Below are positions 4,177 to 42,060 of a DNA stretch of 64,000 bases, one piece after another (positions within the stretch are counted from its first letter, which is position 1; every line of letters starts with the position of its first letter). Position numbers and translations under genes: made by a program. Source of the DNA: Eledone cirrhosa (taxonomy: Eukaryota). The stretch covers positions 180,544,001-180,608,000 of the forward strand of contig OZ024742.1 in the NCBI GenBank assembly GCA_964016885.1, in the 5' to 3' direction. The notes beneath the pieces were generated by a model. It saw only the letters and a list, made by a program, of their open reading frames with translations. It was not told the origin of the DNA and ran no database searches.

Positions 4177-4494
4177 ATATATATATATATACATACATAC
4201 ATACACATATGGTATATATATATATATATTTGTGTGTATATACACATATCATCATCACCTCCCTCTTCCGTCCATTTTCCACGCTAGCATGGGTTAGATG
4301 GTGTAATGTAGAGTAATAAAATATTTAAATATGAAAGTAAAGTTATATTGCCTGAAAATGTCGAAATACGTTTAGTTTTTGTTATATGTTGTTTTCATGG
4401 ACAAGCAAAATAACTGTTTATCTATTTATTAGATTATTAATCTAAAAAAAAAAAAGAAATTTTCTGTGACAACAAACTATTTTCAAACTAAAGG

Positions 4495-10425: not shown

Positions 10426-12452
10426 TATTATTGATGTATTATTATTATGTCAGACGCCATGCTTTGCAGCATAGAGTTATGGCCCTTTAAGTTCTGGGTT
10501 CAAATCTAGCCGAGGTTAGCTTTGCATTTCATCCATACGGGGTCGATAAAATAAAGCACCAGCAATGCACTGGGGTAGTTGCTGGCCTTGTGCCAAAAGT
10601 AGGAACATTATAATTATTGATGTTGAGCTTGGTATCGAAACTTGGGTTATTGGAAATTTAACAGACGTGTGTAGTATAAGGTTCTAAGATGTTCAGCTTG
10701 ACCGTCTGCCTGTCAGCGTCTGTCTATCATAAAACTCCTCCGGCACTATGACAGTTAACTGATTTTTTTTTTTGTTTCCCTATATTTCATGAGATATATT
10801 CACACTGGGTAGGGGGGGGGTACATACCAGAAGTTTTGCAGGGCATGGTATGTAGTTTCCCAGGCTGGTATATTGAAAGCAGGGTTTCGTAAGTACTTTC
10901 CCGCACTAATGTAGATGGAAACTGCACATCTACTTAATAATTATTATTAATAGCATAGAGTTAAGGCCATTTACGGTTTGAGTTCAAATCCTGCCGAGGT
11001 TAACTTTGCCTTTCATCCTGACGTGGGTCGATGAAAGAAAGTACCAGTAATGCACTGGGGTAATTGCTGGCTTTGTGCCAAAAGTAGAAACAATTATTAA
11101 TTTATTTTTTATACATTCCTGTGTTCGATGAGCGATCAAGGATTCCATGAAGGTGTCGATAGTCTAAAATGTTTGAGGACCCCTGTTCTAGGAGAAGGAA
11201 AACTTTGATGTAAAAACTGCGAGTCGATGGCAGCCAAAGATGTTGACCTGTTCTTCTTTTAGGATACCTTTCACTGTTTTTCAGAGAGTGGGATTGGTCT
11301 TGTGCAGGGTGGGCGACGAGCAACTGAACAGAGAATTGTGGGTGATTGGAAAGTTTGGTGGGCAATACATGATTTTGAGTATTAAAAAGGTATTTCAAAT
11401 TACGTTACCCGAAAAAGATATTGAAAGGAGATATGCAAAGAACCTGTTATTGTCAAGTGGTGTTATTAAGTTAGACATGGCCTGGGCCAAATACTGGTCA
11501 AGACCTATCAAAGTTATCAAAGTTAGCTTTAATTAAACTATATGCAAAATAACAACAAACTGTTATTTAATGGATAACAAGCGTAAGAAAAAATTACCTA
11601 CCCCAGAATTTTAGGTCTTGTTACCCGCTACACCCAAAGTCCGTTCTGCTGCTGACCAGTTTAATAACAAGCCCGCAATAAAGGAACGCCATCAATAGTT
11701 CGTATTTTACAAGCTCGCAGGCAATGGTCTACACTATATTTAAAAAGGAGTTTAAATGGGAATAACTGGATCATATTTCTAGATAAGATATAAACATCCG
11801 CGCAAATAAAGAACATTTTTGTATTTTCTATAGTTTTGAGAAGGGTCATTAATATTCAAATACTTCTTAGGACGAAAAAACGTTTTTTTTTTCTTTTAAT
11901 GGGTGGATATAAATCAGAGTGACCACGGGATAAACTCACAAACGCCACTAACACCGAGAGATCACGTAAAATTGATAGAGATGATGACCTGTAAGAATTC
12001 TGACGACATGTCGTAGACAAGGATGCCCGGATGACAATGCCAGACAAAACATGAGAACTCCAAGATGAGACTTGTTCATTGCGCATATAACCAGACAGAC
12101 ACATGAAGTTGTTGGATTGTATTGATCACCAAGTGACTGCAACACTTGTTTTCTCGTATTTGTGGATTTATAGCTTTAGTTAAACTATACGCAGAAAAAC
12201 AACAAAGTTTGATTTGTTGAACTGTTATTTATTGGATGACAAACATTAACAAATGTAAGATATATCTACCCTTGAAGTTAGGGTCTTGTTACCTGCCTCG
12301 CCAGAAGTCCGTGTTTCAGCTGAAATCTAACTTCAAGTAGTAATATAACTCGAACGAACATTTTATCTATTGTTCCTACAATTTTCTGTGTATTGTACGG
12401 CTTTTAAAAACCCCATTGGCTCCATTTAAGAACATTTGTCGTCAATACAGCA

Positions 12453-12790
12453 TTGTTTATTTATTTCATGATTTTATCAATGCTCAGAGTAGTCAATTAC
12501 CTATGTATTATTTGCAACCAAACATTAAGCAGCAAAGCCATGAAGCCTTCATGCTTAAAGTATCATTTATATTCTAAGCATGCTGACCAGAAGGAGCAAC
12601 CTTTATCGTATTTCTTTCAACTGAAGATCTCATTCGAAATGCAGAAAACGTTGATCTCGGAATTTCAGAAAGTAACTACGCTGCAAGATAACGGGATGAT
12701 TGCGTCGTTCAACATTGCCTTGCAGATTTCAAAGGCCAGTAAGTCCGACACTCTAGGAGAAACATTATATGATGAGATACACCTGGCAGG
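12453..12790 (+). pseudogene. hAT transposase N-terminal remnant (BED-like zinc finger)
   Basis: LCIICNQTLSSKAMKPSCLKYHLYSKH...ASFNIALQISKASKSDTLGETL. Confidence 0.85.
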
Positions 12791-12834
12791 AGGCGGAAAC
12801 GTTTGTAAGTCCATCTGAGTACTGCCTAAGTCTG

Positions 12835-21362: not shown

Positions 21363-21904
21363 AATATCAAAATATTAAAGAAAAAATAATAAATATGATT
21401 TCTAATTTAGGCAGAGGGCCAGCAATTATTGTGTGTGTGTGGGGGGGGGGTAGAAGAAATTAGAAATAGTTGACTAGAACTGTATTATATTGACACTGGA
21501 AAATGAAAAACAAAGTTGATCTCAGTGGGATTTGAACTCAGAAAAGGCCATAACTAAAAGCTTTAAAAGCACTTTGTTCAACACACTAATGAGTCTTCCA
21601 ACAGACCCTGCTTCAAAAGAAAAGAAAATTTTCTAATATTGGTAGAAGGCTAGTAGTTTAGAAAGAGAAGGAGAAGTTATCATCATCAACATCTGGTTTA
21701 ATGTATGTTTTACTTTTCAGAAGCATTGAACGTTTTGGAAGTTAATTACATCAACCACAGACTTAGGTGTTACTTTATTTTATTGATCCTGGAAGGATGA
21801 AAAGCAAAGTTGATCTCAGTTGGATATAAATGCAGAATGTAAAGGGCCATAACTAAATACTTCAAACATCTTGTCAAATGCTCTAACGATTCTTCTACCA
21901 CCAT

Positions 21905-24155
21905 CACAGAACTACACACACTTGCTCACCTGCATAGAACGCTTTTCTCGTTGGCCTGAGGCTTTTCCTATAAATGATACCTCAGCGGAAACAGTCGCTA
22001 AATCTTTGGTTTTACACTGGGTATCACGTTATGGCGCCCCAGCGAAGATAACAACGGACAGAGGACGCCAATTTGACTCCCACCTCTTCAGGGAACTGAC
22101 TCGCCTGTTAGGATGTAAACACATCCGCACGACAGCTTATCACCCGCAAGCTAATGGTCTCGTGGAAAGATTCCATCGCCAATTGAAAGCTGCAATAAAA
22201 GCATATCCAGACAAGACCCACTGGTTTGAATACCTACCACTCATCCTTCTGGGCATTCGATCCACCGTTAAGGAGGAATTCGGACACACACCTGCAGATT
22301 TAGTGTACGGCACCACCCTGGTTCTACCTGGTCAGATGGTTGATCCCATCTCTCCTCAGGATGTTCCAGACCCAGGATCATACGTACACCGTCTTCGATA
22401 ATATATGTCTCACCTTGCTCCTGCAAGCACCCGTCAACAGAACACGGCCACACACGTACCTTCAGACATTAAATATTGGACACACGTTTTCGTTCGAAAC
22501 GACACCATCTCAGCTCATCTTTGACCTCCATATTCTGGCCCTTATTGTGTTCTAAAAAAATATCCGAAATATTTTATTCTCGATCTAGATGGTAAACAGA
22601 ATTCTGTCAGCGTGGACAGATTAAAAAAAAGCCATCAGGGATACTGTTACAGTCTCTACACCAGAAACTCCAACAGATTGCTGTCCCAGCGAGCCACCTG
22701 TTTCATCTCCAGTCACGAGAAGTGGACGACGCGTCCATTGGCCCGCCAGGTTGGCACAATATGTGATTTACCGTTAACCTCAAGTGAGTTTCTTAATCAT
22801 TCTTCGTGCAAAACATTTTCATTTTTCTTGTGTTTACTATTTCCAGTTTCAAATACAATGAACTTTCTGCTTGAACAATTGCAATTTTTAGTGACCATGT
22901 GCTCATGTCACGAAGAACATTATTTATTACAAACACTATTTAAGAACAAACATTGTGTATATCATTGTGTATAACATTTTTTTCTTCTCTCTCTTGTTTT
23001 GCAAATTTTTTTATTTTTATTTTTCTGTAACATTGATTGTGTAATTGCCATAATTTTTATATACATACAAGGCGTGTACATATTCTGTTTTTCATGCACA
23101 CTAAAAAACCACGTTTGTTTCACCTTTTGGTTCATACACGGAGCAATAGATATTTGTGTCCCTCTAACTCTTACACTACAAAATGTTTTCTCTTTGATCA
23201 CGCATTTCACAAATCGCCTCCTCAAAACACTGGCCTTCTTTTTTCACGTACACATTCACTCAATAGCTCGAATGCCTCGCTATTTTTTTTACCACATGCA
23301 TTCGCTCAAGTCATATGCTTTAGGCAGCATGCTTACGGCCATTCAGTTCACACATTACGGTTATCTTCACTGCCCAGTTAGACTTTTTGTCACGTAATTC
23401 ACAGGCAGCTCAACCCAAATTGCAACAGGCTCATTCATCACTCCCTGCATAAATCTGGTCAAAGTCATTTTATAGTTTATTTCATTTTTCTCTTCCTGAC
23501 ACACACATCTTGCCATATCATCTCTACATCGACTCTGTCCTGTACATCGATGATCACAAAATTTCACAACGTGCTGGACACTCCTGGGGCTATTGTCATG
23601 ACAAATGCACCACTGGCCCATTACTATACGATATTTCGCTCTTTTGTTGTACAAAAGATCTGGCAGGGAGATAATGTACAGCCACCGGAAATAACATCTG
23701 TGAAATATACAGCGCCATCTAGCTGTTAGCTAGCTACCTCACCGTGAAACAAAACTATCCTTAGAAGCTACCAGAATAAACGCCTAGACAGCGGCTAAAT
23801 ATCAAACGATTATTTCTGTATAAATAGAGTGGTTCCAAACACTTCGCCAGTCGACATTTGGCAGAGTCAACCCGCATATCGTTGTTCCTCGCCTCTGCCA
23901 CGCTTTGTCACTCACACACGCCTTGTATCTTGTATCGTCGCTTCATGTGAAAATAAATAGCTGATCGAATTTACATCTCGCCTTGCTTCGTCCGTTTCAA
24001 CTTGTTATTTCGTCTGTCCATCCTCACCAGTGACAACAGTTCTTTTAAGGGCTATCTTCAGATCTTATCAGACCGTATGCGATAACAGTCCTTCTAAGGG
24101 CTATTCTCGGATCTGATCAGAAGTAGTGACCAGACTGACTAACCACGTCGCTACA
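21905..24155 (+). mobile_element. Gypsy/Ty3 LTR retrotransposon, 3' part (integrase, 3' UTR, PPT, 3' LTR)
   Basis: Integrase [16 protein letters not shown]...ITTDRGRQF...[20 protein letters not shown], a GPY-like region and SVDRLK. A polypurine tract GGCAGGGAGA precedes the LTR. Confidence 0.92.
23675..24155 (+). repeat. 3' LTR (TGTA...TACA, 481 bp)
   Basis: TG/CA termini directly after the PPT; TATAAATA at ~23818; AATAAA at ~23953; an internal ~40-bp duplication. Confidence 0.8.
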
Positions 24156-25204: not shown

Positions 25205-25660
25205 GCCTGACTGGATTTTAACTGCCTCTCATTTAGGTACTTCATTACTGGGGCTTTTTAACTGTCTTTAATGAGGTAGTTCATTATACTAGGTTCTTAA
25301 CTGTCTGCAATGAGGTACCTCATTAATGTGGTTTTTTAACTGTCTCTATTTTTGGTACCTCATTACCGTGGCTTGTTAACTGTCTCTAGTTTTGGTAACA
25401 CATTTGTATTGTTAACTGTCTATAATGTTGCTGTGTTGTTAAATGTCTGTAAAATGGTACCATGTTACTGTGTTGTTAACTGTCTGTAATGTGATACCAT
25501 GTTACTGTGGCTAGTTAACTGTTTGTAATATGATACCATGTTACTGTCCATAGTTACTTGTCTGAAATGAGGTTCTTCTTTCCTGAAGATTAACTGTTTC
25601 TTGTTTTGGTACCTTACTCCTGTGGGTTGGTAAATCTCTGGTTTTGTTACCTTATTACTC
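25205..25660. repeat. Degenerate ~36-bp minisatellite with an internal palindrome
   Basis: About 12-13 units of TTAACTGTCT(C/G)TAATGAGGTACCTCATTACTGTGG. Confidence 0.8.
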
Positions 25661-25662
25661 TA

Positions 25663-25946
25663 AACAAATGGTTCCCAAATTCATTTAGTCATGGAACCTT
25701 TATTCGATTTTCAAAAAATTGTAGTAGCCATATCTATACTTTGAAGACATCATGTCAACTCTAATTTTAATAAGGCATTAAATCAAGCAAAAATATCATA
25801 GAGAGAAATAATTTATTCATATTAAAGTAAAAGTGTTTAACTAATTGATATTAAATTTCATTAATTGACAACTCATCTTGCAGAAACCTAGATTTATTTT
25901 CATAGAACCTTGAAGTTCCCTGGAGTCCTCTTTGGTAAATGCTATT
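25663..25946. mobile_element. hAT-type MITE (degenerate)
   Basis: Ends CAAATGGTTCCCAAA and TTTGGTAAATGCT, with GGAACC-type subterminal motifs. Confidence 0.4.
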
Positions 25947-26699
25947 TGAGATTCCAATATTTCAAGCGGTAACAATTTATTTATTTATTTAATTATCTTC
26001 ATCATGATTTAACATCCTTTTTTCACATTAGCATAGGTTAGGTGAGCTGTCTGGTTGTGACACAAAGCAGGTTAGAGGACTGTGTTTTGCTCACATGAAA
26101 CTGATTTTGAATTGGTTCTATGGCTGGATGCCCTTCCTAATGCCAACCACATGTACATTGTGGTCTGGTACTTTTTGTCATGACACCTACACAACATCTT
26201 TAAAGTTTAGACGGCGCACATTTTATCATGACTCCTATACAACCACTTTATGGTGTGGACTGGAAGCTTTTTGCCATGACACCTACATGACCACTTTACA
26301 GTGTGTACCAGGGAGTTGGGTAGGGAAGATGCATGGGGAATTGGGGAGGTAATTCTATATGGATATACAGTAAAGCTTGTAAGCAATGACAGGGTAAGAA
26401 AAGTATCTCTACTAACTGGTTACAGATTGTTGCACTGTGTGGTGAAGATAGTGGCAGTCGCCTTCATCGATGTGGAATGATGGTAGGGGTGATAATGGTC
26501 ATGGTGGTGAGGGTAGTCGTGGTAGTGTGGTGATGGAAGTAGTTGGTATGATGTTAAATATTGAAACCCTATAAATATAAAACATCTTGGCTCAATTCCA
26601 AACCAGTTATCAACATCTACTGCAAAATTTTATTTCTAAAGAAATAACAATAAATTATTTCACCATCTTGTGTCCGTCTTTACATTTCCAGTGAATATA

Positions 26700-27890
26700 A
26701 GTCTTGCTGCACTGGCTACATAGTACTACACTGGTTAAACATTACAACATAGATTACAGATAGTTGCACTGGTTACATATAACTACACTAGCTACACATT
26801 GCTACATCATCATCACCATTTTACGTCCTTTCTTCCATGTTAGCATGGGTTAGACAAATTGTCCTGTTGTGAGCAATGCCAGGTCAGTTGACTATGTCTT
26901 GCTCATACAGAACTGATTTTGGCTTGGTTTCTACAGCTGGATGCCCTTCCTAATACCAACCTCATATACAGTGAGTACTAGGTGCTTTTTTACTGTGGTA
27001 CCTACATGACCATTTTACAGTGTGGACTGGGTGATTTTTTTTGTTGTGACACCTACATGACCACTTGACAGTGGGGTGGGTTCATACTGTCTATATGCTT
27101 CAGCTTTGGCTTGTATCCGCGGGAAGTCGGGTCTTCTGTATTACTATGTAATGCCAGAGGTCTTGGTTTTGTGTCATCGCCTTTGAGAGGTGCAATTGGG
27201 CACCTCATCCGAGGTCTTCTTGTCTCCCCACTCCAAGGCTTCCATCGACCTTTAGTGCTCTGCACTTTTTTATGCAGCTGTTATCCTTCATACACATCCC
27301 ATGTCCATACCAACGTAATCTTCTGTCCTGCACACAGCATTTGATTCTTCTTATGTCTCTCTCTCTCAATTTGTTTATGCTTTGTCGTTCACGTATATTA
27401 CTATTATACATCCATCAGAATAATGCAAGCTTTATTTCTTTCTAATCTATGCAAGTCTTCTGCACACAACGCCCAGGTTTCACTACCATGCAACATTGTT
27501 GTTCATAGGCATACATCATAGTCTGCCTTTTATTTTGAGGAAAAAGACTTTTGCAGCTAGCAGTGGCAGTAGCTCCCTGAACTTCTTCCATCCCGTTCTT
27601 ACCCTGGTTACTGTACTTCCAGAACACCCACCTCCGCTGCTAATTCAGTCACCTAGGTAGCAGAAGCTGTCTACTGTTTCTATCGAGCCCTCCCAGAATT
27701 TGGTAGTGCTTGTTTCCTGTGGTTGTTTGCTGCTTACACGTATTACTGCAATTGTTACAAATCACTGCACTTGCTACACATTACTGCACTGGTTACAAAT
27801 TATGGCACTGGTTACACAATATGGCACTGGTTACAGATTGTTACACTGGCTACACATTACTGCACTAGCTACATATTACTATACTATTTA
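26700..27890. repeat. ~20-bp minisatellite (ACATTGCTGCACTGGTTAC-like) split by an RTE/SINE insertion
   Basis: The same unit occurs at 26705-26808 and 27735-27885 on both sides of the insert. Confidence 0.7.
27110..27730 (-). mobile_element. RTE LINE 3' fragment
   Basis: Minus frames: FCYLGD, LRER.IRRIKCCVQDRRLRWYGH, CIKKCRALKVDG...GR. Confidence 0.85.
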
Positions 27891-28249
27891 TAGAGTGTAC
27901 TAAAACCAAAAATGGGTTAAATTAATATTTAATGAGTAAAAAAATGAATAATTGGAAAAGTTATCGAGCTATTTATTACAACCACCATCAACATCATGAT
28001 AATGATGATCATCATCATCATCGGAATTTACACCTCTATATTCATTATTATCATCTGTATCATCATCATCATCAACTGAATTGGTGATTAGCAGAATCAA
28101 TAACAGTTTGTGTTATTTAGTTATGACTTTCTACATTCTGAGTTCAAATCCCACTGAGGGCAATTTTGTCTTTCATTCTTCCTAGGTTGATAAAATGTAG
28201 TATCAGTCATGAACTAGTCATGTCTACCTCTAGGTCTCCTCATGGTTGG

Positions 28250-28520
28250 TTGTGCCTGTAAAATCCTTCCAGCGATTCTTTCTTGAAACATTCTAACATG
28301 TCTATTATTAGAGTGGCAATCTCTCAATTTGGAAAAGTAGTGGCTCCTTGATCTTCAAACTATGCCCTATATCAAGTAACATTACTCCAAAGACCCTTCA
28401 GATGAACCCCGTTTTGGCTGCTTGTATTCATGATTGTATTCTTTCAGTCAATACTCAAGGTTTATGACCATAGGCAAGAGTTGACACAAATACCAAATTG
28501 AAGTCTTCGCAGCACTGATT
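28250..28520 (-). mobile_element. Rex3/Expander-like RTE fragment (degenerate)
   Basis: Minus frame ...IQAAKTGFI*RVFGVMLLD...EPLLFQIER, resembling the RIQAAEMSFLRRVAG...EPLLLHIER pattern. Confidence 0.55.
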
Positions 28521-30021: not shown

Positions 30022-30942
30022 TATATAATAAGTGACAATATATATTCTAGCTATAAATATTCAATGATTTGAATAGATATGTCAACAAGTTTTATTATGT
30101 ACACTTGTCTCTTCCTTATTGAATTATTTCTCTCTAATTTCCTGGAAAGTTGCCATGTTTGTTTCTTTAGAGACAGATGAAGGAGGAATATTTAAGAAAT
30201 AAGAAATAACTAAATTTCATTTATTTTCTGGCTGTTTTTGTTTAGCCCTATGTCAGCCCTGGCTAAGCAGATCTCTGATCAAAATCATTCCAGCCTTGTT
30301 CAACCTGTCTATCTTAGTTTTATTGCCCACACTCTAAAGTGGTTGTGTAGGTGTCATTACAAAAAGTACCTTGCCCACACTGTAAAGTGGTCATGTAGGT
30401 GTTACGACAAAAAGGACCCAGCCAACACTGTAAAGTGGTCAGGTAGGTGTCATGACAAAATGCACCCAGCACACACTGTAAATGTGGTGTTAGAAAGGGC
30501 ATCCAGTCATAGAAACCTAGCCAGAAACAGTTCTCTATGAGTAATATATAGTCACCTAACACAACTTACCTCAAATGGGCCCACTCATCTAACCCATGCT
30601 AGCGTGGAAAATGGATGTTAAACGATGATGATGTTCCTAGTGGAAGGAAGCTGTGTAAAAGACCATGAAAGATGTATGCAGAGGTGGTGACAGCTGACTT
30701 TATGTAACTACATCTCGCAAAGAAAAGGATAATGGAAAGTGACAAGTGGAGGGAAGCTGGAGAATAGGAAGACTTTGTAAGACGTAGGTAGCGCTGGTGA
30801 AAGCTGACTTTAACTACCGCTCACAAAGAGACAAATGGAGATATGTTGTGCTTGAGGGAATTTATCTAACTCATGCAAACATGGAAAAATGAGTATAAAA
30901 ATGATAATGGTTATGATATATTTTAGACTATATTATCTAAGG

Positions 30943-35764: not shown

Positions 35765-36624
35765 TTTCACACATTATATATATAGAGAGAAATGCAGAAA
35801 TCATCATCATTCAATGGACATTAAATTATATATGTGTGTATGTGTGTGTGTGTGTTACTTCTCTTTTGTTTTTACTGCATCACATAGCTGTCATAGGAAT
35901 ATCTTATTTTTTTCTTTCCCAAAGCCATATAAAGGTGTCAGAAACTTCAAGATGGCCTTTGTCATTCAATAAATCAGTTTAGATGAAGACTTGATTTTGA
36001 GGGTGTTATTAGATTAAATTTTCTCACATTTTGAAGTGTTGCTAAGGAGTGGAACAAATTTTCCTGGGATAGATTTATAGTCAAGTCAAAAGCAACAAGG
36101 CAGAAATTCTTTTGAGACATTTTATCGCTCAAATGAACAGTCCAATATACTATAGAGGTTTAAAGAATTAGACAGATTGGATTCACATATCTCTTTTTAA
36201 TAATGAGCTCTTTAAGACGCTTAACTCTTTCATAACCATAATTCTAATGACAGACACTACCTATTGTTTTGTGAATGTGCGTGGCTTAGTAGTTAGAAAG
36301 TTGTATTCACAATCACGAGGTTGCGAGTTCAATTCTCAGACCGGGTGATGCGTTGTGTCCTTGAGTAAGATACTTTATTTCAAGTTGTTACTTTTGCCAG
36401 GAGTTGCAACTGATAGATAATATCAGCAATGGAAAGACCAATGGAAATTATTTCTTTGGTCCAATTTAATGAGGTCCACCCCACTTAGTAAGAAAATGAG
36501 GTCAGGAATCCTGTTGATTGATCAGAGCAAGAGCGATAGTTTTCAAATAATTTTCAAAATAATCGGGAATTTGGGGCCTGTTTGAAAAATAAATTGCAAT
36601 CTCTATGTAACACTGTAAGAAGTG

Positions 36625-39600
36625 TGCAGTGTGTCCATGTTGACAGAGGGGCTGAGCTGTCAACTGATAACTATCTAATTATCTGCAGTGTGTCCATGTT
36701 GACAGAGGGGCTGAACTGTCAACTGATGGCTATCTAATTATCTGCAGTGTGTCCATGTTGACAGAGAGGCTGAGCTGTCAACTGATGGCTATCTAATTAT
36801 CTGCAGTGTGTCCATGTTGACAGAGGGGCTGAGCTGTCAACTGATGACTATCTAATTATCTGCAGTGTTGTCCATGTTGACAAAGAGGCTGAGCTGTCAA
36901 CTGATGACTATCTAATTATCTGCAGTGTATCCATGTTGACAGAGAGGCTGAGATGTCAACTGATGACTATCTAATTATCTGCATTGTTGTCCATGTTGAC
37001 AGAGAGGCTGAGCTGTCAACTGATGACTATCTAATTATCTGCAGTGTGTCCATGTTGACAGAGGGGCTGAGCTGTCAACTGATGGCTATCTAATTATCTG
37101 CAGTGTGTCCATGTTGACAGAGGGGCTGAACTGTCAACTGATGACTATCTAATTATCTGCAGTGTGTCCATGTTGACAGAGAGGCTGAACTGTCAACTGA
37201 TGACTATCTAATTATCTGCAGTGTGTCCATGTTGACAGAGGGGCTGAGCTGTCAACTGATGGCTATCTAATTATCTGCAGTGTGTCCATGTTGACAGAGG
37301 GGCTGAGCTGTCAACTGATGGCTATCTAATTATCTGCAGTGTGTCCATGTTGACAGAGAGGCTGAGCTGTCAACTGATGGCTATCTAATTATCTGCAGTG
37401 TGTCCATGTTGACAGAGGGGCTGAGCTGTCAACTGATGACTATCTAATTATCTGCAGTGTGTCCATGTTGACAGAGGGGCTGAACTGTCAACTGATGGCT
37501 ATCTAATTATCTGCAGTGTGTCCATGTTGACAGAGGGGCTGAACTGTCAACTGGTGACTATCTAATTATCTGCAGTGTGTCCATGTTGACAGTTGACAGA
37601 GGGGCTGAGCTGTCAACTGATGACTATCTAATTATCTGCAGTGTGTCCATGTTGACAGAGGGGCTGAGCTGTCAACTGATGACTATCTAATTATCTGCAG
37701 TGTGTCCATGTTGACAGAGGGGCTGAACTGTCAACTGATGGCTATCTAATTATCTGCAGTGTGTCCATGTTGACAGAGGGGCTGAAATGTCAATTGATGA
37801 CTATCTAATTATCTGCAGTGTTTCCATGTTGACAGAGAGGCTGAGCTGTCAACTGATGGCTATCTAATTATCTGCAGTGTGTCCATGTTGACAGAGGGGC
37901 TGAACTGTCAACTGATGACTATCTAATTATCTGCAGTGTGTCCATGTTGACAGAGGGGCTGAACTGTCAACTGATGGCTATCTAATTATCTGCAGTGTGT
38001 CCATGTTGACAGAGAGGCTGAGCTGTCAACTGATGACTATCTAATTATCTGCAGTGTGTCCATGTTGACAGAGGGGCTGAACTGTCAACTGATGGCTATC
38101 TAATTATCTGCAGTGTGTCCATGTTGACAGAGGGGCTGAACTGTCAACTGATGGCTATCTAATTATCTGCAGTGTGTCCATGTTGACAGAGGGGCTGAAC
38201 TGTCAACTGATGACTATCTAATTATCTGCAGTGTGTCCATGTTGACAGAGAGGCTGAGCTGTCAACTGATGACTATCTAATTATCTGCAGTGTTGTCCAT
38301 GTTGACAGAGAGGCTGAGCTGTCAACTGATGACTATCTAATTATCTGCAGTGTGTACATGTTGACAGAGGGGCTGAACTGTCAACTGATGGCTATCTAAT
38401 TATCTGCAGTGTGTCCATGTTGACAGAGGGGTTGAACTGTCAACTGGTGACTATCTAATTATCTGCAGTGTGTCCATGTTGACAGAGAGGCTGAGCTGTC
38501 AACTGATGACTATCTAATTATCTGCAGTGTGTACATGTTGACAGAGGGGCTGAACTGTCAACTGATGGCTATCTAATTATCTGCAGTGTGTCCATGTTGA
38601 CAGAGGGGCTGAACTGTCAACTGATGGCTATCTAATTATCTGCAGTGTGTCCATGTTGACCGAGGGGCTGAGCTGTCAACTGATGACTATCTAATTATCT
38701 GCAGTGTTGTCCATGTTGACAGAGAGGCTGAGCTGTCAACTGATGACTATCTAATTATCTGCAGTGTGTACATGTTGACAGAGGGGCTGAACTGTCAACT
38801 GATGGCTATCTAATTATCTGCAGTGTTGTCCATGTTGACAGAGAGGCTGAGCTGTCAACTGATGACTATCTAATTATCTGCAGTGTGTCCATGTTGACAG
38901 AGGGGCTGAACTGTCAACTGATGACTATCTAATTATCTGCAGTGTGTCCATGTTGACAGAGAGGCTGAGCTGTCAACTGATGACTATCTAATTATCTGCA
39001 GTGTGTCCATGTTGACAGAGGGGCTGAACTGTCAACTGATGGCTATTTAATTATCTGCAGTGTGTCCATGTTGACAGAGGGGCTGAACTGTCAACTGATG
39101 GCTATCTAATTATCTGCAGTGTGTCCATGTTGACAGAGGGGCTGAACTGTCAACTGATGACTATCTAATTATCTGCAGTGTGTCCATGTTGACAGAGAGG
39201 CTGAGCTGTCAACTGATGACTATCTAATTATCTGCAGTGTTGTCCATGTTGACAGAGAGGCTGAGCTGTCAACTGATGACTATCTAATTATCTGCAGTGT
39301 GTACATGTTGACAGAGGGGCTGAACCCTCAACTGATGGCTATCTAATTATCTGCAGTGTGTCCATGTTGACAGAGGGGCTGAACTGTCAACTGGTGACTA
39401 TCTAATTATCTGCAGTGTGTCCATGTTGACAGAGAGGCTGAGCTGTCAACTGATGACTATCTAATTATCTGCAGTGTGTACATGGTGACAGAGGGGCTGA
39501 ACTGTCAACTGATGGCTATCTAATTATCTGCAGTGTGTCCATGTTGACAGAGAGGCTGAGCTGTCAACTGGTGACTATCTAATCTGCAGTGTGTCCATGT

Positions 39601-40530
39601 TGACAGAGGGGCTGAACTGTCAACTGATGACTATCTAATTATCTGCAGTGTGTACATGTTGACAGAGGGGCTGAACTGTCAACTGATGGCTATCTAATTA
39701 TCTGCAGTGTGTACATGTTGACAGAGGGGCTGAACTGTCAACTGATGGCTATCTAATTATCTGCAGTGTGTCCATGTTGACAGAGAGGCTGAGCTGTCAA
39801 CTGATGACTATCTAATTATCTGCAGTGTTGTCCATGTTGACAGAGAGGCTGAGCTGTCAACTGATGACTATCTAATTATCTGCAGTGTGTACATGGTGAC
39901 AGAGGGGCTGAACTGTCAACTGATGGCTATCTAATTATCTGCAGTGTGTCCATGTTGACAGAGAGGCTGAGCTGTCAACTGGTGACTATCTAATCTGCAG
40001 TGTGTCCATGTTGACAGAGGGGCTGAACTGTCAACTGATGACTATCTAATTATCTGCAGTGTGTACATGTTGACAGAGGGGCTGAACTGTCAACTGATGG
40101 CTATCTAATTATCTGCAGTGTGTACATGTTGACAGAGGGGCTGAACTGTCAACTGATGGCTATCTAATTATCTGCAGTGTGTCCATGTTGACAGAGAGGC
40201 TGAGCTGTCAACTGGTGACTATCTAATTATCTGCAGTGTGTCCATGTTGACAGAGAGGCTGAGCTGTCAACTGATGACTATCTAATTATCTGCAGTGTGT
40301 ACATGTTGACAGAGGGGCTGAACTGTCAACTGATGGCTATCTAATTATCTGCAGCGTGTACATGTTGACAGAGGGGCTGAACTGTCAACTGATGGCTATC
40401 TAATTATCTGCAGTGTGACCATGTTGACAGAGGGGCTGAACTGTCAACTGGTGACTATGTTATTATCTGCAGTGTGTCCATGTTGACAGAGAGGCTGAGC
40501 TGTCAACTGATGACTATCTAATTATCTGCA
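36625..40530 (+). repeat. 59-bp tandem array (~66 units) derived from a LINE endonuclease coding segment
   Basis: Unit TGCAGTGTGTCCATGTTGACAGAG(G/A)GGCTGA(G/A)CTGTCAACTGATG(A/G)CTATCTAATTATC, with internal inverted repeat GTTGACAG/CTGTCAAC. Confidence 0.98.
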
Positions 40531-40672
40531 ACGTGAAACTATCTAAAGTCAAGAAAATCCATAAAACTAGCAAGTCCAGCTCTATCTACAGTTAAATGTG
40601 GGAAGTGCTGGCTGATAAGGAGGTCAGGAACAAGTATGCAGATATTATTGCTTCCAAATTCAGAAAAGTGCA
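40477..40672 (+). mobile_element. RTE (Rex3/Expander-like) LINE fragment: end of the APE domain and linker
   Basis: In-frame VHVDREAELSTDDYLIICNVKLSKVKKIHKTSKSSSIYS*MWEVLADKEVRNKYADIIASKFRK. Confidence 0.72.
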
Positions 40673-40989
40673 TATCATTATCATCGTTTAACGTCCATCT
40701 TCCATGCTAGCATGGGTTAGACGGTTTTATTCCATTTGATGGAGGAATGGTCAGGAGACCATGTCTCACTCACATGGAAGCGTCCCTGGCAGGTTTTTTT
40801 ACTGCTGGATGCCCTTTCTAGCACCAACCACATTTACAGTATATATATATCATCATCATCATCATTGATTAACGTCCATCTGCCATGCAATCATAGGTTA
40901 GATGGGTCCCATTTAGAGGCAAGTTGGGTTGGGTGACCATGTCTCACTCATATTGGGGTGTTTCTAGCTGGATACCCTTCCTAACACCA

Positions 40990-41240
40990 ACCACATTGAC
41001 AGTGTATGCTGGGTGCTTTTTGTCGTATCTTTTACATGTCCACTTTACAGTGTGGCCTGGGTACTTTTTGTTGTGTGTTTTACATGTCCACTTTACAGTG
41101 TGGGATGGGTGCTTTTTGTTGTGTTTTACATGTCCACTTTACAGTATGGGCTGGGTACTTTTTGTTGTGTGTTTTACATGTCCACTTTACAGTGTGGGAT
41201 GGGTGCTTTTTGCCGTGTCTTTTACATGTCTACTTTACAG
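40990..41240. repeat. ~48-bp tandem repeat (about 5 units) inside an RTE-tailed SINE
   Basis: CCACTTTACAGTGTGGGATGGGTGCTTTTTGTTGTGTGTTTTACATGT units. Confidence 0.85.
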
Positions 41241-41279
41241 TTTTGTCTTGTATTTGGGAAGCCTTTCAAGGGAGTTATT

Positions 41280-42060
41280 TTCAAGACTATATATATTTAC
41301 AAGTGTTTCCAAGCCCCTAAAGGTCATGAATGGAGAGGGAGACTGGACATGTCTTCAAACAGATATGCTAACTATTATCCAATGGATGACAAAAAACAAT
41401 ATGCTACTAAACGAGGATTAATTTGAATTAATCCACCTTAGAAAAGATGATACATTGAAGTTATATTTTCTTCTCACAGGTGAAACCCTCATGGCACCAA
41501 ACAATAGCAGAGACCTTAGAGTAATTATTAATTTAAGCTGGGGTATTCACATAGACAACAAAGCTGACTTGGCCTGCAGAACATGTTCCTGGATTCTCAG
41601 AGCTTTCTGGTCTAGAGGAATCCAGACCATCATCTACTTTACCTTTACCATCCTTGAATTCTGTTACCCATTGTGGTCTCCTCATATGAAACCAAGTAGT
41701 ATGAAAATTGAAGCACCCCAGAGGACAGGCCTTGATTATTTGGGGTCTGCTAAAAAAACTCAAACTCGTTCTTCAACACTGCTGTCAACACTACATCATC
41801 TCTATGATGTGGAAAAGAGTTTGTCAATATTGCCCAAATGATGTTGGCATCACCTTTATAAAGCAGCCAAGGCTTGGTCTCTGGGCTATCCGCATACTAC
41901 AAAAATTTAACTTACACCTCTTAGCAATGATATGACACAACTACTTCACTTCATCTGGTCATGCTCTCTTTAATATCATACTAAAGACAGAAACATGTCC
42001 ATAATATTTAAATGTTTCCTAGATTAATTCCTCAAATAATTCCTGGATAAACCCCCTGCA
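41280..42060 (+). mobile_element. Degenerate CR1-clade LINE 3' fragment
   Basis: LQTD...I.QW...NNMLLNED, RDL.VI, WILRAFWSR, LEFCYPLWSPH, KIEAPQR. Confidence 0.82.

What the first reader, a model, noticed from the sequence alone, without database searches (positions are those of the whole stretch)
36625..40672. 3.9-kb satellite amplified from the SDH-motif region of a LINE endonuclease, still attached to its parent LINE
Seen: one frame of the 59-bp unit reads VHVDRGAELSTDDYLIIC. The last unit continues without a frameshift into NVKLSKVKKIHKTSKSSSIYS*MWEVLADKEVRNKYADIIASKFRK. Known: Rex3/Expander-type RTE endonucleases end in a V.VKRGAELSTDHHLVV-like motif carrying the catalytic His, followed by a W-E.L linker. 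Inference: the array arose in place from 59 bp of LINE coding sequence, in which the His codon position now reads GAC/GGC. The units are highly homogeneous while the flanking LINE is decayed, which points to recent amplification. Because 59 is not a multiple of 3 and other frames contain stops, the array is not coding.
Basis: partly seen in the sequence, partly recalled or inferred. Interest (0 to 1): 0.75.

Follow-up and report, generated by a model that had tools for sequence, protein, structure and literature searches.

The report
Minisatellite grown inside dead Rex3 LINE
A 59-base piece of a dead jumping gene (a Rex3/RTE-type LINE) is repeated 66 times where related copies carry it once, so it likely expanded in place; this is a known route to satellite DNA, and the same jumping-gene family shows it at many other sites in this genome.

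Summary
Confirmed, and largely ordinary. The array (36625-40530, 66 x 59 bp) is built from the last ~20 codons of the endonuclease of a dispersed Rex3/RTE-type LINE and runs in frame into ~140 bp of that LINE. Corrections: the 'parent' is a ~250-bp relic, with a ~740-bp deletion ending exactly at the array's first base. The segment is not single-locus: two more arrays (28 and 118 units) and a trimer on C17 use it with other junctions. A 3' segment of the same LINE gives far more satellite (29,437 tandem matches, one 62-kb array). All units share 9 substitutions and differ from each other by 4%, so expansion likely followed decay of the copy. One oddity: two of those substitutions perfect an 8-bp hairpin found in 58 of 65 units and 0 of 53 dispersed copies; this is suggestive only. 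Satellites from LINE coding sequence are in print, and this scan reported the same process before on other DNA of this genome (8 notes).

The parts
36573..36624 (+). 52-bp piece of the same LINE from just upstream of its endonuclease domain; joined to the array across a ~740-bp deletion
   Evidence: Matches 17 listed family copies, 72-86% over 41-59 bp in most; distance to the unit is 730-747 bp in 7 of 7 long copies measured
36625..40530 (+). Tandem array, 66 x 59 bp; unit = end of the APE endonuclease (family reads KRGAELSTDHHLVIC)
36639..36664 (.). 8-bp perfect inverted repeat with a 10-base loop in the first unit; present in 58 of 65 units and 0 of 53 dispersed copies
39418..40214 (+). Higher-order duplication: 386 bp repeated exactly at an offset of 411 bp (7 units); a second exact repeat of 278 bp lies at offset 947 (16 units) from 38101
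40531..40672 (+). Single-copy LINE tail, in frame with the last unit (post-endonuclease linker, one stop); 80.5% identical to the family majority; another repeat begins at 40674

Best explanation
The array is a non-coding minisatellite whose 59-bp unit is the endonuclease end of a dead Rex3/RTE-type LINE copy, and it likely grew in place after that copy had decayed. Shown: LINE identity, LINE sequence on both sides, a ~740-bp deletion ending at the first base of the array, a 4-base repeat (TGCA) bounding the unit, variants private to this locus, block duplications of 7 and 16 units. Inferred steps: (1) a copy inserted and gathered about 15% substitutions; (2) microhomology-guided slippage or repair duplicated the 59 bp between the two TGCA words, possibly in the same event as the deletion; (3) unequal exchange and gene conversion expanded and shuffled the units. 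It is one small case of a process that affects many copies of this LINE family. No function is implied.
For: The 200 bp of last unit plus tail hit 39 other scored loci at 79-83% (40 scored of 1135 candidates). Reading frames of these copies match Pfam PF14529 (4 of 13 ORFs, best E 9e-11) and RVT_1 (2 of 13; E 2e-23). Published Rex3 proteins carry the same motif and following W. The unit differs from a natural copy at 11 of 59 positions, 9 of them fixed in the array; the best of 53 dispersed copies matches 49 of 59. Units differ from each other by 4.2%. The 59-bp junction was found only here: other multi-unit matches to a trimer are at most 80% identical. Arrays fused to their LINE flanks recur for another segment of the family.
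Against: No unexpanded allele was seen; the read data could not show one. The order and coupling of deletion and duplication are not shown. Homogenisation of an older array could mimic late amplification. The family majority comes from copies picked for similarity or intactness, so the divergence contrast (80.5% against a mean of 92.2% for 19 copies) is inflated.
Confidence: 0.88

Rival explanations
1. The endonuclease end is a sequence-determined hot spot: short repeats 59-61 bp apart make it duplicate more often than other 5' or central parts of the LINE.
For: Three arrays carry the motif in tandem (128 matches = 12 + 27 + 89), plus a trimer. Four control motifs gave no clear LINE-derived array at periods 51-76 (one ambiguous 35-bp array). 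The 61-bp back-joint is the only one upstream of position 4199 among the 27 rows shown. A second species shows two 61-bp back-joints here.
Against: Only about two further independent origins, since L031 and L034 share rare variants. By hand: p about 0.04, or 0.10 if the ambiguous control counts. A 3' segment gives over 100 times more tandem matches, searched with a wider gap and on a far more abundant part of the element. The segment is not unusually structured in natural copies. One search showed 27 of more than 4,600 joint rows.
Confidence: 0.35
2. A template switch (quasi-palindrome correction) perfected the hairpin in this copy, and the hairpin then promoted expansion.
For: Two fixed substitutions turn a 6-of-8 stem into 8 of 8; one is seen in 0 of 52 copies, the other in 2 of 52. 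Mean folding energy is -7.4 kcal/mol for 65 units against -2.9 for 53 copies; random placement of 9 substitutions gave this stem in 26 of 20,000 trials.
Against: Post hoc: any structure as stable arose in 206 of 3,000 trials; shuffle z-scores are only -1.1 to -2.7. The two C17 arrays expanded without the hairpin, one to 118 units.
Confidence: 0.15
3. The repeat junction was made elsewhere and brought in, by gene conversion from another dead copy or by a source element that already carried a dimer.
For: This likely applies to the C17 pair: the middle unit of L034 shares two variants with L031 units that 0 of 54 other loci carry, and the two share a 13-bp deletion found in 2 of 13 copies matched.
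Against: The window's junction (59 bp, TGCA) and its substitutions were found at no other locus, and the 5' edge is collinear with the family.
Confidence: 0.06
4. The array is an assembly artefact, or its length is wrong.
For: No record spans the array in the runs laid (only the first two units were given).
Against: 29 distinct unit variants with nested block duplications. A short-read contig crosses the unit junction at depth 77, and 5-6 RAD reads from each of two other samples match the second unit's letters (weak).
Confidence: 0.03

Closest known systems
Satellites related to LINE ORF2: chicken HinfI (CR1), Phodopus PROsat and seal Pvc 20 (L1), as listed in Zattera and Bruschi 2022, PMC9659126 (passages)
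   Same: Tandem unit taken from LINE coding sequence.
   Different: Here the element is RTE/Rex3, the unit is wholly LINE-derived, the array is small (3.9 kb) and both LINE flanks survive.
TE-derived minisatellites in human, Ahmed and Liang 2012, PMC3389668 (passages)
   Same: Arrays that start and grow inside single TE copies; short direct repeats at the edges; positional hot regions (AluS, LTR12). At least 7,276 such repeats, 23% of mini/satellites.
   Different: Other TE classes and host; edge repeats there are 5-20 bp, here 4 bp.
Maize CRM1TR and CRM4TR, Sharma et al. 2013, PMC3648361 (abstract and outline)
   Same: Independent arrays from similar regions of related elements; locus-specific variants.
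   Different: LTR element, LTR/UTR-derived units, centromeric retrotransposons.
Rex3/RTE subgroup of RTE-clade LINEs, Tay et al. 2010, PMC2887409 (passages and passages of supplement 2; author name recalled)
   Same: Same endonuclease-end motif and linker; single ORF of about 1,000 aa with APE and RT and a very short 3' UTR.
   Different: All copies seen here are broken; no phylogeny against named Rex3 sequences was run.

Membership tests
TE-derived tandem repeat (criteria of PMC3389668) | Unit at least 70% similar to a TE | tested here: met
   48-49 of 59 bases (81-83%) to natural copies
TE-derived tandem repeat (criteria of PMC3389668) | Array overlaps a TE copy in position | tested here: met
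   LINE sequence on both sides
RTE-clade LINE (parent family) | APE endonuclease followed by RT in one element | tested here: met
   PF14529, PF03372 and PF00078 in family copies
RTE-clade LINE (parent family) | Single ORF of about 1,000 aa, element about 3 kb, very short 3' UTR | tested here: inconclusive
   Shared span about 3 kb; nearest intact homologues are 954-1057 aa at 60-68% identity; no intact copy among those fetched
RTE-clade LINE (parent family) | RT phylogeny within the RTE clade | not tested
   No named reference set was available as tool sequences
Rex3/RTE subgroup | RGAELSTDH motif and W-E-L linker | tested here: met
   Family copies; 105 of 120 homologues; Rex3 proteins in the paper's supplement (by eye)
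APE catalytic SDH histidine (L1 H230) | The TDH histidine is the equivalent of L1 H230 | tested here: inconclusive
   The Pfam match ends here (profile position 116 of 117) and L1 has S228 and catalytic H230, but the alignment to L1 structures covered only residues 58-153. Equivalence rests on the motif, recalled.
Classical multi-locus satellite family | Same monomer in long arrays at many loci | tested here: not met
   The 59-bp monomer was found at this locus only
Coding tandem repeat | Open frame through the array | tested here: not met
   Longest stop-free stretch 64 codons

The most novel reading that the evidence does not exclude
This LINE family has fixed, sequence-encoded weak points (the endonuclease end and a 3' coding segment) that breed tandem arrays again and again in two species, and at this locus a template switch that perfected a hairpin tipped one dead copy into expansion. 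Mutations in a dead copy would then predict which copies become satellites.
Probability: 0.2. Interest if true: 0.55.

Novelty: new member of a known kind. Interest (0 to 1): 0.27.

Why it matters
On its own the array is a tidy textbook case of a minisatellite born from a dead retrotransposon, with both junctions readable. Its value is as one data point in a large natural series: the same family shows dimers, short arrays and a 62-kb array with LINE flanks intact. A 2022 review found no conclusive evidence that particular TE parts seed satellites preferentially (PMC9659126); this genome could test that directly.

Tried and rejected
Unexpanded allele in public runs: none seen; SINE reads swamped the left flank and nothing was laid on 35900-36100. 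No RNA holder listed. Two further arrays holding the 12-base motif (C1:63.76 Mb, 31 bp; C3:17.93 Mb, 21 bp) show no match to the LINE and were dropped; the reversed control pattern gave 86 matches, so such hits occur by chance, and 97 of 197 matches were not listed. The C18 match was not fetched. Segmental duplication of L031 and L034: no shared unique flank. A pre-existing hairpin in the family: rejected. Long direct repeats at the array-prone segments: a scan of three natural copies for exact repeats of 7 or more bases 50-130 bp apart found none bounding the 59-, 61- or 65-bp units. A notebook entry calls the L031/L034 deletion 19 bp; it is 13 bp. A host gene around the array: no convincing Pfam hit among 25 of 70 ORFs scanned. 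Paper searches (listings only) showed no title on LINE-derived satellites in cephalopods; subscription papers and repeat libraries are not covered.

Full report
Observation. The array is real: 36625-40530, period 59, 66.1 copies, 94% matches. Its 65 complete units fall into 29 variants, and the 55 units of 59 bp differ pairwise by 4.2%. It holds exact block repeats of 386 bp at a 7-unit offset and 278 bp at a 16-unit offset. No frame stays open for more than 64 codons.

What the unit is. The last unit plus tail matches a dispersed family: 39 other scored loci at 79-83% over about 190 bp, of 1135 candidates with 40 scored. These copies read VLDVHVKRGAELSTDHHLVICNL followed by the W-E-L linker. 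Their frames match the retrotransposon endonuclease profile PF14529, which ends at this motif, and RVT_1. The nearest intact homologues are 954-1057-aa endonuclease-RT proteins at 60-68% identity. The window's own 65 residues align to 118 of the 120 listed homologues. Rex3 proteins in the supplement of PMC2887409 carry the same motif (passages only). Rex3/RTE type is therefore well supported by motif and architecture, without a phylogeny. The first His codon reads GAC, GGC or AAC in all 66 units. Its equivalence to L1 H230 (catalytic per PMC4837594) rests on the motif; the structure search aligned only an earlier part. An exact 16-base motif occurs 653 times, 125 of them in the C17 arrays; with 6 of 20 copies keeping it, that suggests one to two thousand copies of this segment (rough inference).

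The 52 bp left of the array (36573-36624) are also from this LINE, from just before the endonuclease. In 7 of 7 long copies that piece lies 730-747 bp upstream of the unit; its end reads CTG in all 7, and CTG precedes the unit in 4 of 7. So a deletion removed almost the whole endonuclease and ends at the array's first base. On the right the LINE stops at about 40672 and does not resume in the window. The parent is thus about 250 bp. The unit is bounded by TGCA at both ends, the kind of short repeat invoked for slippage models (PMC3389668; PMC12628747, part 2 of 5 read).

Order of events. All units share 9 substitutions against a natural copy (15%); three of them occur in 0 of 53 dispersed copies, and the best copy matches 49 of 59 bases. 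The tail is 80.5% identical to the family majority. Unit and tail were thus about equally decayed, while units differ by 4%. Amplification after decay is the simplest reading; homogenisation of an older array is not excluded, and no absolute age is claimed.

Is it unique? No. A trimer query found arrays on C17 at 13.11 Mb (61/68 bp, 28 units), 16.60 Mb (61 bp, 118 units) and 38.44 Mb (3 units). A strict tandem pattern gave 128 matches, all in the window and the first two. Their junctions differ from the window's. L031 and L034 share a 13-bp deletion and two rare unit variants, so they probably count as one origin. Contigs of a second species show two 61-bp duplications at the same place. Four control motifs elsewhere in the LINE gave no clear array (one ambiguous), which hints at a modest hot spot. 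The fifth control overturned the idea of a special site: a 3' coding segment gave 29,437 tandem matches against 92 for the reversed pattern (wider gap), and 12,823 at periods 72-124. One array of 65/66 bp spans about 62 kb on C1 (sampled at seven stretches) with LINE sequence at both ends; others have units of 93, 99 and 123 bp. Contigs from both species show most strong back-joints there, and one at the endonuclease end (27 of more than 4,600 rows shown). That 3' part is also far more abundant, so the rate per copy is unknown.

The hairpin. Two of the fixed substitutions make a perfect 8-bp stem, in 58 of 65 units and 0 of 53 copies; mean energy is -7.4 against -2.9 kcal/mol. That exact stem arose in 26 of 20,000 random trials, but any equally stable fold in 206 of 3,000. 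The C17 arrays lack it. It may record a template switch (mechanism recalled from the literature on quasi-palindromes); it is not needed for expansion.

Comparison with what is known. Satellites related to LINE ORF2 are listed in PMC9659126, thousands of minisatellites inside TE copies with positional hot regions in PMC3389668, and repeated origins from similar regions in PMC3648361 (abstract). Passages of two octopus TE papers (PMC13282606; PMC9115989) discuss RTE LINEs but showed nothing on derived satellites; their supplements were not read. This scan's earlier notes report the same process at eight other places in this genome, unchecked by me except where my own calls overlap.

Verdict. A real, cleanly readable, small example of a known process that is common in this genome. 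Interest 0.27. The testable remainder is a per-base map of array births along this LINE.

Noticed in passing
G000:C1:2887081-2949232 (L062-L066, L086, L087): About 62 kb of a 65/66-bp satellite made from the 3' coding end of the same LINE, with LINE sequence at both ends; 29,437 tandem matches of this segment genome-wide.
   Followed up: partly
L077, L078, L079, L082 (C1 17.1, 18.1, 18.3 Mb; C2 11.4 Mb); L080, L083, L085: Short 5'-truncated copies begin with a partial 123-bp duplication at the same junction; other copies hold 123-, 99- and 93-bp arrays. May be a short derivative element or a product of insertion.
   Followed up: partly
L031 (G000:C17:13.11 Mb) and L034 (C17:38.44 Mb): Two endonuclease-end arrays 25 Mb apart share rare unit variants and a 13-bp deletion but no unique flank; L031 also abuts an inverted 3' piece of the LINE.
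   Followed up: partly
L032/L033 (G000:C17:16599916-16607051): 118-unit array; a variant carries the same A-to-G change as the window's hairpin arm (17 of 91 units in L032), unseen in 52 dispersed copies.
   Followed up: no
window 37583-37648; L031: 7-bp duplications of the left hairpin arm (one window unit) and of the right arm (14 of 27 L031 units) are reverse complements of each other.
   Followed up: no
L076 (G000:C1:156.14-156.17 Mb): A 6.0-kb tandem block, 99.7% identical between the two copies read, containing a piece of this LINE; six motif hits at 6-kb spacing.
   Followed up: partly
window 21853-22398 (+): Integrase core domain (PF00665, E 3e-12), likely a broken LTR-element or DNA-transposon relic.
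   Followed up: no
window 12408-12815 (+): BED zinc finger (PF02892, E 2e-5), likely a hAT-type transposon relic (assignment recalled).
   Followed up: no
window 28222-28503 (-): A separate 3' fragment of the same LINE family.
   Followed up: no
window 41440-42060 (+): Decayed frames that resemble the 3' part of a CR1/L2-type LINE (recalled, no Pfam hit).
   Followed up: no
window 25216-27880, 30325-30488, 40991-41241: Several short 37-51-bp tandem runs inside other dispersed repeats.
   Followed up: no
G000:C1:63.76-63.78 Mb and C3:17.93 Mb (L039-L041): 31-bp (about 23 kb) and 21-bp (over 7 kb) satellites that share a 10-base word with the unit but show no LINE match.
   Followed up: partly
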